64,000 nt of DNA, taken from positions 164,548,001 through 164,612,000 of the forward strand of contig OX597815.1 of assembly GCA_951406725.2 (NCBI GenBank), written 5' to 3'. Position 1 is the stretch's first letter, and each line of letters begins with the position of its first letter. The notes beneath the pieces are model-generated. The model was not told the origin of the DNA and searched no databases. It saw only the letters and a list, made by a program, of their open reading frames with translations. The translations under genes and the position numbers were made by a program. Source of the stretch: Octopus vulgaris (taxonomy: Eukaryota). Positions 1,310-50,100 of this stretch are shown here, piece by piece.

Positions 1310-1537
1310 CTTTTTCGTTTCGTCGATAAATGGGCAAATTAGTCTGAATGAAAATGTGCCCAAATGTTCTCTTTACAGGAAGTATTTGTTTTATATTAAT
1401 TGAATCATCAATCATGTTACTACACAACTGAGTTCCTTCAATGACACGTTGTGGTCTATATCCATTAATATTCAAAATCACTTCATCATTCAGGCATTCA
1501 TTTCCTTCAACACTGATGTTGAATAAAACTTGGTTTT
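1310..1537 (-). CDS. Exon 3 of C3-like/TEP gene (end of MG1, MG1/MG2 junction)
   Basis: Acceptor gtacttttttAG (1539-1538), donor AAG|GTGAGT (1309-1304). 228 nt, phase 1-1, open. Ends ...ILPVKRTFGHIFIQTNLPIYRRNEK, resembling the C3/C4/C5 signature G[YH][IL]FIQTDK.IY.PG..V. The gene continues beyond the left edge of the window. Confidence 0.82.
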
Positions 1538-2119
1538 CTAAAAAAGTACATGAATACAACACTTAAAGAGTTTAAAACTTCAGACAATGAAAAATAAGAA
1601 AATATCTATAACAACTAGAAAATATACAATGTATAAGAATAAGACCAGTCGGAACTGGAAGCATTTGTAAATGGGGTTACTGGGTTCCCTTAAATTTAAT
1701 TTAAAATTACATATAATTAACCCATAGCTGTCGGGGTCCCAGCAACTGATTAATTAGAAGTTAGTTCTAAATGTGGAAATAAACAGACCCGGGTTAAATC
1801 ACGGGTGGCTGCCTGACAAGGTCAAGTATCCGGTAACCACCCAAGCCATGGTTATGTTGAAATCATAGGATGTAGCGCGGTGGATGTGAACTATTTCTGC
1901 AGATAAACTTATTAAGTCAATGGCGAATATCACTAGATGCTAAGTAGATGAACCGTCAATAGACTGTCAAAGGCTAGGATCAACCAGTTCAGTTAATGAA
2001 CTACTGCTATCATTTGAAGCTGTGACATGTGCACATCAGACATTCAGCGATCGAATGACCAACGAGGCTTATCAGGGCAAGTCCCCTGACCAGATGATGA
2101 TCATGAAAGTTATACACAC

Positions 2120-2530
2120 AGGCATGGGCGTGGCTGTTTAGGTGCACGCGTGGCCATGTGGTAAGAAGCTTGCTTCCCAATTACATAGATCTGAATCCAG
2201 TCTCACTGGGTGCTACATTGGGCAAGTGTCTTGCACTCTAGCCTCAGGTTGACTAAAGCCTTGTAAGTGGATTTTTGGCAGACGGAAAATGAAAGAATCC
2301 TGTCGTATATACATGTGTGTGTGTGTGTGTGTGTGTGTGTGTGTGTGTGTATGTGTGTGTGTGCGTGCCCCCCTCCACCTCTTGACAATTGGTGTTGGTG
2401 TGTTCATATTCCCGTAGCTAAAAAATATAAAAGTACTGGGGTCGATACATTCGACTAAAAATTCAAAGCAGTGCCCCAGCATGGCCGGTCACAGTCTAAT
2501 GACTCAAACAAGCAAAACATAAAAGATGAA
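2120..2530 (+). mobile_element. SINE family B (CORE-like, internal (GT)n)
   Basis: Head GCGTGGCCATGTGGTAAGAAGCTTGC, TTGGGCAAGTG core, (GT)n tract, AGCATGGCC..ATGACT.AAACAAG tail. Confidence 0.75.
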
Positions 2531-2615
2531 AGATCACCAATGACTTTGGTGACCGATGAATCTGAAAAAGAACTCATTTGTTTCCTTCTTTCGTATTCTT
2601 TTAGAATATAGATTA

Positions 2616-3128
2616 CTAGCAGTATCGCCCGGCGTTGCTCGGGCTTGTAAGGGAAATAACTATATAAGCATTTTTAGAGAGTTACTTCCCTTATAGATGC
2701 CAATTCGGGCTTTCTTAGCCATTTCAGTTTTGGAGTCTTCAAGCCATGAAGTCGTTGTTCTAAAAGAACGCTGGTCTCCTTGACAACGGTTTACGACGTT
2801 GATTTCCTTACACTCCCTTCCCCACAGCTTCACGAGGGAAGGAAGAAGGAGGAGAAGCAAACAGGTGCAGGTGTGACCATGGACGCCAACTCCGCCGCCA
2901 TCGACACACGAAAAATTATGCATTAAAATGGAATAAAAAATTATGTTAAATTATTTTTTAAATCGTAGACTCATCGTAGACGCACGCTAATACTCAGACG
3001 GGCTCGATATGAATCACGACTATAAGATACCCGAATTTGGTTAAACTGCACCGCAAAATGTGGGAGTAGTTAGGAATCTAAATCGAAGGGGACAGACACT
3101 CACACAACTACAGTTTTATATATATAGA
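2616..3128 (-). mobile_element. Non-autonomous Helitron
   Basis: Minus strand begins TCTATATATATAAAAC and ends with hairpin CCCGAGCAACGCCGGG then CTAG. Inserted between host A and T with no TSD. Confidence 0.85.
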
Positions 3129-3158
3129 TATGGAAATATTTTCTGAAAATGTACTTAC

Positions 3159-3316
3159 CCTCAAATACTTTCACATATTTCTTCAGTACTTGCTCGGTGT
3201 TAACATCAAGTAACTCTATTCGCACACATAAGTTATAATAGTCGAAGATTTGCAGCAGGACCGATTCATTTTCATCGCATCGGAAAACTTTTGGCATGAA
3301 AATCATATATTCGGTG
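3159..3316 (-). CDS. Exon 2 of C3-like/TEP gene (start of MG1 domain)
   Basis: Acceptor ttctttccggaaaatAG (3318-3317), donor G|GTAAGT (3158-3153). Encodes TEYMIFMPKVFRCDENESVLLQIFDYYNLCVRIELLDVNTEQVLKKYVKVFE, fitting the Y-x-I-x-x-P-x-V-x-R-x4-E-x-V pattern at the start of C3/A2M MG1. Ends in phase 1. Confidence 0.8.
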
Positions 3317-3494
3317 CTATTTTCCGGAAAGAATACATTCAGACATTAGAAATTTCAAAGAAGGCATTTATAAATACAAAGATATTTATATGAAAACAAT
3401 AACGGTATATGGATTTACAATGATCACATATTCTTACAATATATAAATATCACCTCATTTATATTTTTAAAAAAGTAAATCCTTTGTATATTAT

Positions 3495-3708
3495 TTTCTA
3501 CTCAAGGCACAAGGTCCGAAATTTTGGAGGAGGGGTCCAGTCGATTAGATTGACCACAGTACGCAACTGGTACTTAATCTATCGATCCCGAAAGAATGGA
3601 AGGCATAGTCGACCTCGACAGAATTTGAACTCAGAACGTAAAATCAGACGAAATACTGCTAGGCATTTCGCTCGGTGTGCTAACATTTCTGACAGCTCGC
3701 CGCCTTAA
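3495..3708 (-). mobile_element. SINE family A
   Basis: Reverse complement starts AAGGCGGCGAGCTGTCAGAA; full-length match to the other family A copies. Confidence 0.85.
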
Positions 3709-48925: not shown

Positions 48926-48932
48926 TGTGTTC

Positions 48933-48968
48933 CTTTCTGTGGAAGAGCGTAGGCTCGAAACGTTAAAG
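48933..48968 (+). ncRNA. Minimal type I hammerhead-like motif with variant core
   Basis: CUUU-CUGUGGA-A-GAGC(GUAG)GCUC-GAAAC-GUU-AAAG; stems I and II pair, core has U instead of A6. Confidence 0.45.
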
Positions 48969-49053
48969 ACTTTTTCACTTCCCGAGCGTTAAATTAATAC
49001 ATCTGTTTTTTGTCTACACCACTTGTCTCCGTCTTTTGGTTTGTTTTTTTTTT

Positions 49054-49779
49054 GCATACCTACACGTGTGCCCCCAATCCAACTTTGTTTCCTCATAACT
49101 CTCAGGAAAATGGATATTTTTTAATGAAATCTTCTATAAATAAGCTTCGATGGTGTACATTATGTTTATATTGGAGTTTTTTGTTAAAATCTCTTTCTCA
49201 AGAGTGAAGTAAAGATTTTCGGAAAATTCACACGAGTTGACTTTGTTTCCTCATAACTTTCAGAAAAATGAGTAATTTTGTTATGAAAGTTTCTACAAAT
49301 ATCTCTCAGGATGTGTAGATTACGATTCAGTTGGAATTTGATATGACAAGAAAAAATTGGTGAACGCGCACACAAATATACTGACATACATCATGTGTAT
49401 CTACAAAATTAAACTTGAAATTTCGAAAAAATATTGCGATGCGTGTCAATATGCATGCGTACGAGTACTCTTCTTTTTTTTTTTTTTTCATTAAAAAAAA
49501 ATATATATATAATCATAATCTACACACTCTGAAAGGTATTTGTAGAAAGTTTCATTAAAAATTACCCATTTCTCTGAAAGAAATGAGGTAATAAGCCTAC
49601 TCGTGTAAATTTTCCGAAATACTTCTTGCCACTGTCGGAAACTTTTTCACAACAAATTCCGATATAATTAGACTATATACTATCTAAAGAGTATTTCCAG
49701 AAAATTTCATTTAAAAATATCTAATTTTCTGGAAGTTATAAGGAAACAAAACGGTGGGGCACATTTGTGTAGGTATGCC
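49054..49779. mobile_element. Foldback-type DNA transposon, same family as 6210-6912
   Basis: TIRs GCATACCTACAC..TGTGCCCC / GGGGCACA..TGTGTAGGTATGCC and the same 2+2 internal subrepeats. No TSD visible. Confidence 0.75.
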
Positions 49780-49996
49780 TAAACATATAATGCGGTGTAT
49801 GTGAGTGTGAAAGAGAGAGAGAGAGAGCATGTGTTCATTGGTGAGCGAAATACGATGTATAGCAATAAAAAAATTGGTTTACTATTAGAAAGTTCACCAA
49901 ATGAAACTTCTTGTACTAACTGCTTCGTTACACACAGACTATATAGATATAAATAAAAAGCAGTCGAATTCAACATTAATATTATAACTGACTTAC

Positions 49997-50046
49997 CTTA
50001 CAAGCTGTACCACCATGAAGTAAAGCCATACTTTTAAGAGTACCAT
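49997..50046 (-). CDS. Exon 1 (signal peptide) of a complement C3-like thioester-containing protein gene
   Basis: Minus strand aaacATGG start at 50046 encodes MVLLKVWLYFMVVQLV plus AG, then a perfect donor GTAAGT (49996-49991). 50 nt gives phase 2, matching the phase-2 acceptor of exon 2 (joined codon AG|C = Ser). Hydrophobic leader, with TATA/Inr directly upstream. Confidence 0.75.
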
Positions 50047-50064
50047 GTTTGTTGTGTGCGTATT

Positions 50065-50100
50065 GAAATGAAAAACGAACCTCTGCTTCGATTTTATATA
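50065..50100 (-). promoter_or_regulatory. TATA box plus initiator of the C3-like gene
   Basis: Minus strand TATATAAAAT (50100-50091) and TCATTTC (50071-50065). The Inr A at 50069 lies 29 nt from the T of TATAAAA and 23 nt upstream of the ATG. Confidence 0.6.

What the first reader, a model, noticed from the sequence alone, without database searches (positions are those of the whole stretch)
1310..50100. Hidden complement C3-like gene whose first intron (~46.7 kb) spans most of the window
Seen: three minus-strand exons with canonical GT-AG sites and matching phases (2 then 1) join into 145 open codons, MVLLKVWLYFMVVQLVSTEYMIFMPKVFRC...FGHIFIQTNLPIYRRNEK, behind a correctly spaced TATA/Inr. Known: the Y-x-I-x-x-P-x-V-x-R start and G-x-x-FIQT-x-x-x-IY motif mark MG1/MG2 of thioester proteins, and the preceding G favours the C3/C4/C5 branch. 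As I recall, vertebrate C3 also has a phase-2 intron after the leader and a phase-1 intron after this motif. Inference: the 50-nt exon is the true exon 1, which gene predictors would probably miss across 46,680 bp of transposons.
Basis: partly seen in the sequence, partly recalled or inferred. Interest (0 to 1): 0.75.

Follow-up and report, generated by a model that had tools for sequence, protein, structure and literature searches.

The report
Disarmed second complement C3 in octopus
The three exons and the 46.7-kb first intron are real but already annotated; they start a second octopus copy of the immune gene C3 whose protein lacks the reactive thioester cysteine and the inflammatory fragment, so it likely acts by non-covalent binding rather than by tagging microbes chemically.

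Summary
Observation confirmed, 'hidden' refuted. The three minus-strand exons, GT-AG sites, phases and the 46,680-bp intron are exact. Transcript-like contigs of four studies join 49997 to 3316. Public protein models from Octopus vulgaris, O. sinensis and O. bimaculoides already contain this leader exon, and the longest intron being the first is ordinary.

What seems undescribed is what the gene is. It has 37 exons over about 191 kb and is a paralogue of the canonical octopus C3 on another chromosome: 30 of 36 introns shared, a C345C tail, sister to squid and octopus C3 in small trees. It reads GSGEQ in place of GCGEQ, lacks the catalytic His and all six anaphylatoxin cysteines, and has no recognisable MG4, LNK or CUB. 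Its thioester domain is still as conserved as that of true C3 (78% vs 79% to Argonauta). A 2022 survey counted one C3 per cephalopod and missed it, but reports similar disarmed C3 copies in snails. Likely a secreted, non-covalent modulator; function untested. Its range outside octopods was not tested.

The parts
50093..50102 (-). TATA-like box (candidate promoter; not shown to be used)
   Evidence: a similar TATA stretch lies about 225 nt before the ATG of the canonical C3; contigs X1 and X3 run past it
50065..50071 (-). Inr-like element, candidate start at about 50069
   Evidence: contig X16 ends at 50072, a weak hint only
50047..50124 (-). In-frame upstream stretch that public models translate (starts at 50124 or 50115); probably 5' untranslated in transcripts from the TATA promoter
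49997..50046 (-). Exon 1 coding part, 50 nt, hydrophobic leader (predicted signal peptide), phase 2 donor
3317..49996 (-). Intron 1, 46,680 bp, GT-AG, rich in repeats; no nested gene seen among its 12 open frames of 150 aa or more
3159..3316 (-). Exon 2, 158 nt, start of MG1
1538..3158 (-). Intron 2, 1,621 bp
1310..1537 (-). Exon 3, 228 nt, end of MG1 and start of MG2
1..1309 (-). Start of intron 3 (17,161 bp); exons 4-37 continue for about 140.6 kb beyond the left edge of the window, in G000:C2

Best explanation
This is the 5' end of a spliced, already annotated second C3 gene of octopus whose protein has serine in place of the thioester cysteine, no anaphylatoxin cysteines and no recognisable MG4, LNK or CUB domain, so it likely is a secreted protein that works by non-covalent binding. 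Shown: gene structure, splicing, sequence losses, conservation in three Octopus species and Argonauta. Inferred with good support: it arose by duplication of C3 before octopods and squids split, and lost two whole symmetric exons (one in MG4, one in CUB). Inferred from C3 biochemistry: the leader is removed, a furin-type cut at the basic site leaves two chains held by the kept cysteine pair (485/659), no covalent bond to targets forms and no C3a-like peptide is released. Most speculative: without the anaphylatoxin wedge and a folded CUB, the thioester domain would hang exposed, as in the iC3b/C3d breakdown products of mammalian C3, and would bind the receptors, regulators or surfaces that C3 fragments bind, acting as a decoy or non-covalent tag. 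Odds: C3 paralogue about 0.9; no thioester about 0.97; immune modulator through the exposed domain about 0.4.
For: P0003 maps letter for letter to 37 GT-AG exons; canonical C3 (P0019, GCGEQ) to 39 exons on G000:C21. 30 of 36 introns share position (within 3 columns) and phase, 27 exactly; random mean 2.1, maximum 9 in 10,000. A profile of 6 C3/C5 proteins finds MG1, 2, 3, 5, 7, TED, MG8 and C345C (58.6 bits) but not MG4, LNK, ANA, CUBg or CUBf; only 40 residues separate MG3 from MG5 against about 110 in C3. Codon TCT against TGT at the motif; GSGEQ also in O. sinensis, O. bimaculoides and Argonauta, and Tyr at the His of the VIH motif. No cysteine between 485 and 659 against 8 in C3; 10 of 10 tail cysteines kept; basic site KKKR at 564, RKRR in Argonauta. 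Sister to coleoid C3, 100/100; octopod-only duplication rejected (p-AU 1.2e-5), grouping with A2M/insect TEP rejected (p-AU 4.9e-4). TED identity Octopus-Argonauta 231/296 (78%) against 267/338 (79%) for C3, while the other six comparable regions are 38-68% against 64-83%. That CR2 and CR3 bind the TED of iC3b/C3d: PMC4451739, passages.
Against: No functional, protein-level or tissue data. The best solved-structure hit by sequence is human CD109 (255 bits) ahead of C3 (239 bits). The trees hold 10 and 14 rows, no CD109 and no non-cephalopod mollusc C3; the tool warns of long branches, and TED-only support is 87/90, unstarred. Shared introns were not checked against a CD109 or A2M gene, and other octopus TEP loci share at least one TED boundary, so the count is not shown to be C3-specific. 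Pfam NTR is not reached in P0003 and only weakly in P0008 and even in true C3. The same profile also misses MG4 and CUB in the A2M control, so 'not detected' alone is weak; length and exon loss carry that claim. TED is the most conserved part of C3 too, so its constraint could be for folding. KKKR is not the strict R-x-K/R-R furin consensus (recalled). The fold model is poor (pLDDT 61, pTM 0.36) and says nothing on shape.
Confidence: 0.6

Rival explanations
1. Co-opted for a non-immune job (secreted scaffold, matrix, mucus or developmental protein) that uses the macroglobulin ring and C345C/NTR tail.
For: Every immune effector feature is gone; most domains evolve faster than in C3. Thioester-less family members with other roles exist (MCR; named in PMC9363628; their junction role is recalled).
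Against: TED, the receptor-binding surface of C3 fragments, is the part held as tightly as in C3. No tissue data either way.
Confidence: 0.2
2. A C5-like downstream component: cut by a convertase and used to seed a lytic or signalling complex.
For: C5 is the textbook thioester-less, C345C-bearing C3 duplicate; language-model neighbours are C5, C4 and C3 clusters.
Against: C5 keeps ANATO, MG4 and CUB (P0014), which are missing here; not grouped with fish C5. The thioester-less clam C3-like-3b is reported as not haemolytic (PMC8960428, section 13).
Confidence: 0.12
3. A CD109/alpha-2-macroglobulin-type protease trap, as two public names say.
For: Top sequence hit is CD109; names 'CD109 antigen-like' in O. 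sinensis and Argonauta; the 90-residue cysteine-free linker could be a bait region.
Against: C345C tail, hydrophilic C-terminus with no GPI-type signal, 41% TED identity to octopus C3 against 28-34% to five other octopus TEP loci, AU test, no thioester to hold a protease.
Confidence: 0.06
4. A decaying, transcribed pseudogene of C3.
For: Loss of active-site residues and of whole domains.
Against: 1,474 open codons over 37 exons, 91% identity to O. bimaculoides, TED 78% to Argonauta, spliced in several studies.
Confidence: 0.02

Closest known systems
Canonical coleoid complement C3 (octopus P0019; Euprymna scolopes C3, ACF04700.1 = P0040)
   Same: 30 of 36 introns, leader exon of phase 2, longest intron first, MG1-3, 5-8, TED, C345C, the cysteine pair predicted to link the chains, a basic site in the beta-alpha linker.
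   Different: About 30% identity; GSGEQ, no His, no ANATO or LNK cysteines, MG4 and CUB cut down, no second (alpha-gamma type) basic site, 37 against 39 exons, gene 191 against 70 kb.
Gastropod 'type I' C3-like proteins (PMC8960428) and Biomphalaria C3-2/C3-3 (PMC9363628)
   Same: C3 duplicates with an altered thioester motif and no ANATO domain; function unknown.
   Different: Type I is said to lack the alpha-beta site, which seems kept here; snail C3-2 is full length (1,754 aa; MG4 merely not detected), whereas this protein is about 200 aa shorter than its C3. Orthology not tested.
Vertebrate complement C5
   Same: Thioester-less C3 duplicate with a C345C tail.
   Different: C5 keeps ANATO (C5a), MG4 and CUB; separate origin in the tree.
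CD109 / Biomphalaria TEP-3
   Same: CD109 is the top sequence hit in PDB; snail TEP-3 has the same GSGEQ motif.
   Different: CD109 is GPI-anchored with an intact thioester and its match stops before the C345C tail; TEP-3 is filed in the TEP/CD109 group, so the same motif change would be convergent.

Membership tests
Thioester-containing protein (TEP) superfamily | MG domains, TED, receptor-binding MG8 in order | tested here: met
   Pfam MG2, MG3, A2M_BRD, A2M, TED (1e-67), A2M_recep
Complement C3/C4/C5 branch | C-terminal C345C (NTR) domain | tested here: met
   own C3 profile 58.6 bits over 154 of 157 positions, controls none; 10 of 10 cysteines; Pfam NTR itself not reached in P0003
Complement C3/C4/C5 branch | Groups with C3 in phylogeny | tested here: met
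   100/100 with coleoid C3, 10 rows; alternative rejected; sampling thin, no CD109 row
Complement C3/C4/C5 branch | Basic beta-alpha processing site | tested here: inconclusive
   KKKR (O. vulgaris), KKRR (O. bimaculoides), RKRR (Argonauta) in the linker, shifted against C3; cleavage not shown
Functional C3 (covalent opsonin) | Thioester motif GCGEQ | tested here: not met
   GSGEQ, codon TCT, in genome and four species
Functional C3 (covalent opsonin) | Catalytic histidine after the thioester | tested here: not met
   Tyr in the column of C3's VIH
Functional C3 / C5 | Anaphylatoxin domain with six cysteines | tested here: not met
   no cysteine between residues 485 and 659; no profile hit; no remnant by tblastn, best E 0.74
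Functional C3 / C5 | Complete 13-domain set including MG4, LNK and CUB | tested here: not met
   no exon remnants, best E 0.34 and 0.28
CD109 | C-terminal GPI signal, no C345C | tested here: not met
   hydrophilic C-terminus, C345C present; no dedicated GPI predictor on hand
Gastropod type I C3-like | Common descent with the snail type I clade | not tested
Secreted protein | Cleavable signal peptide | tested here: inconclusive
   hydrophobic core (Kyte-Doolittle 2.1 over 11 residues) directly before MG1, same exon layout as C3; SignalP not available

The most novel reading that the evidence does not exclude
Octopods carry a gene-encoded mimic of the iC3b/C3d breakdown product: a C3 copy that lost two whole exons (MG4, CUB), the anaphylatoxin and the thioester, keeps its TED under full constraint, and tunes complement receptors or regulators without ever being activated.
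Probability: 0.2. Interest if true: 0.65.

Novelty: new variant of a known kind. Interest (0 to 1): 0.33.

Why it matters
The claim as posed (a missed gene behind a giant intron) does not matter: the gene and the intron are in public models. What may matter is a correction: octopods have two C3-type genes, not one as tabulated for five cephalopods in PMC8960428, and the second is named 'CD109-like' in some records. It is a natural deletion experiment on C3 (no thioester, ANATO, LNK, MG4, intact CUB) kept at least since Octopus and Argonauta split. That makes a standing question testable: what thioester-less C3 copies in molluscs do, which that paper leaves open.

Tried and rejected
Exon 3 alone matches no Pfam family and no solved structure. 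Run search listed no holder on record as RNA; kinds are guesses. X17, probably DNA, laid nothing, so there is no DNA control. The full-length homologue search found 13 proteins and missed even octopus C3, so its lack of squid hits is no evidence of absence. The wide representative search gave no result, so range outside octopods and kinship to snail type I stay open. Fold model weak; Foldseek ranks C3, C5 and CD109 first with TM about 0.2-0.25, not used for classification; low confidence over MG4, ANATO and CUB regions fits loss but proves nothing. Atlas hit for the tail to NTR clusters scored 0.84, a lead only. First tree run did not finish. Lost exons hiding in introns: none found. Nested gene in intron 1: 12 open frames, 2 reverse-transcriptase related, 3 weak low-complexity hits, 7 none. 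Literature: nine searches; six accessions of this gene occur in 0 papers of the library; one search was too loose to inform; subscription papers, for example the Littorina and Euprymna originals, were not searched or read. Earlier scan notes: none near this place; eight bacterial or archaeal TEP notes do not bear on it. No complex prediction was run, as no partner is known.

Full report
1. Observation. In one search, 3 of 4 runs (X1, X3, X16) end at 49997 with loose letters that read as the start of exon 2, X3 and X12 show exon-1 letters past 3318, 4 of 4 runs show exon-3 letters past 3159, and none covers the intron at 3322-3460. The runs are only guessed to be RNA, but the joins fall on the splice sites and exon 3 has a single match in the genome. 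Evidence was needed: five look-alike leader exons lie inside the intron. The promoter is open: contig ends are 50072, 50151 and 50286.

2. Not hidden. Exon 3 retrieves P0001, 'CD109 antigen-like' of Octopus sinensis. Its cluster holds three O. vulgaris models named 'complement component 3'. All five begin with the leader exon, as does the newer O. bimaculoides model; only two older models lack it. P0003 maps letter for letter to 37 exons from window 50124 to about 140.6 kb left of the window.

3. The intron is long but ordinary in kind. It is about 19 times the median of 2,467 bp given for an O. vulgaris annotation (PMC10700109, passages). First introns tend to be the longest (PMC2518113, abstract); this also holds for the canonical octopus C3 (8,358 bp). 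This gene has further introns of 17, 13 and 11 kb. At least 43% of intron 1 is repeated within the DNA held here; two stretches that looked unique have many copies genome-wide; its 12 long open frames give two reverse-transcriptase hits and no sign of a nested gene.

4. What the gene is. The genome has TED matches at eight places on five contigs (24 matches). Five other places read GCGEQ; this one reads GSGEQ (for two places that exon was not retrieved). The closest is G000:C21, the canonical C3 (P0019), whose cluster holds the two octopus accessions used by the 2022 survey. The two genes share 30 of 36 introns (random mean 2.1). C3 exon 10 (177 nt, phase 0-0, MG4) and exon 22 (102 nt, phase 1-1, CUB) have no counterpart, read from the phase series, and no remnant was found. 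A profile from six C3/C5 proteins finds MG1, 2, 3, 5, 7, TED, MG8 and C345C, not MG4, LNK, ANA or CUB (the A2M control also scores nothing on MG4 and CUB). The thioester codon is TCT against TGT, the His of the VIH motif is Tyr, and there is no cysteine between 485 and 659, where C3 has eight. O. sinensis, O. bimaculoides and Argonauta share these traits. Trees place the gene as sister to octopus, argonaut, cuttlefish and bobtail-squid C3 (100/100, 10 rows; 87/90 on TED alone, 14 rows); an octopod-only duplication and a place with A2M/insect TEP are both rejected. Against this: CD109 is the top sequence hit in PDB, sampling is thin, no CD109 or snail row was held, and long branches are flagged.

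5. How it likely works. Shown: no thioester cysteine, so no covalent attachment by the C3 route; no anaphylatoxin. Inferred: secretion, and a two-chain form through the basic site and the kept cysteines 485 and 659, which align with C3's 545 and 786. The selection pattern is the clue: between Octopus and Argonauta the TED is 78% identical, like true C3 (79%), while the other regions are 38-68% against 64-83%. In mammals the TED of iC3b/C3d is bound by CR2 and CR3, and CUB becomes flexible after factor I cuts (PMC4451739, passages). I therefore favour a non-covalent modulator that shows an exposed TED (about 0.4), over a non-immune role (0.2), a C5-like role (0.12), a protease trap (0.06) or a pseudogene (0.02); the rest is other non-covalent immune roles. 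The fold model is too weak to test shape.

6. What is known. PMC8960428 (passages, sections 5 and 13, supplementary table part 1 of 2; figures not seen) reports repeated thioester loss in C3 duplicates and gastropod type I proteins without ANATO, and lists one gene for each of five cephalopods. PMC9363628 (passages) describes snail C3-2 and C3-3 with altered or missing motifs and GSGEQ in TEP-3. PMC4361686, PMC4199593, PMC7016707 and PMC13365339 (passages) mention cephalopod or snail C3 and CD109 but showed no such octopus paralogue. Six accessions of the gene occur in no paper of the library; subscription journals were not searched.

7. Verdict. Real and spliced, already annotated, long intron unremarkable. 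The remaining value is an apparently undescribed, cut-down C3 paralogue of octopods: a new variant of a known kind. Interest 0.33.

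Noticed in passing
window 6229-6913 and 49054-49780: Two related elements of about 700 bp, each about 70% self-complementary (MITE-like), near the two ends of intron 1.
   Followed up: no
window 52984-54277 and 58559-59844: Two mariner-type transposon copies, 92.5% alike, upstream of the gene.
   Followed up: partly
window 32165-33715, 40933-41394, 55879-56541: Reverse-transcriptase (LINE-like) fragments; the first has many copies at about 90% identity.
   Followed up: partly
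window 57214-57723 (+): Open frame with a single C2H2 zinc-finger match; exon or repeat not determined.
   Followed up: no
window 50072, run X16: The contig carries a 22-nt tail that repeats exon-3 sequence in reverse, probably a library fold-back artefact.
   Followed up: no
exons 12 and 34 of the gene (outside the window): Public isoforms skip exon 12 (62 aa, holding cysteine 485; P0002) or drop 5 residues in the tail (P0004, P0005).
   Followed up: no
G000:C30 (12.2 and 16.9 Mb), C6 (47.4 and 47.7 Mb), C1 (107.0 and 163.8 Mb): Six further TEP loci, including a close pair on C30; not classified.
   Followed up: partly
L047 9125-9140 (G000:C21): The canonical C3 has a similar GCG-TATATATAA stretch about 225 nt before its ATG.
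   Followed up: no
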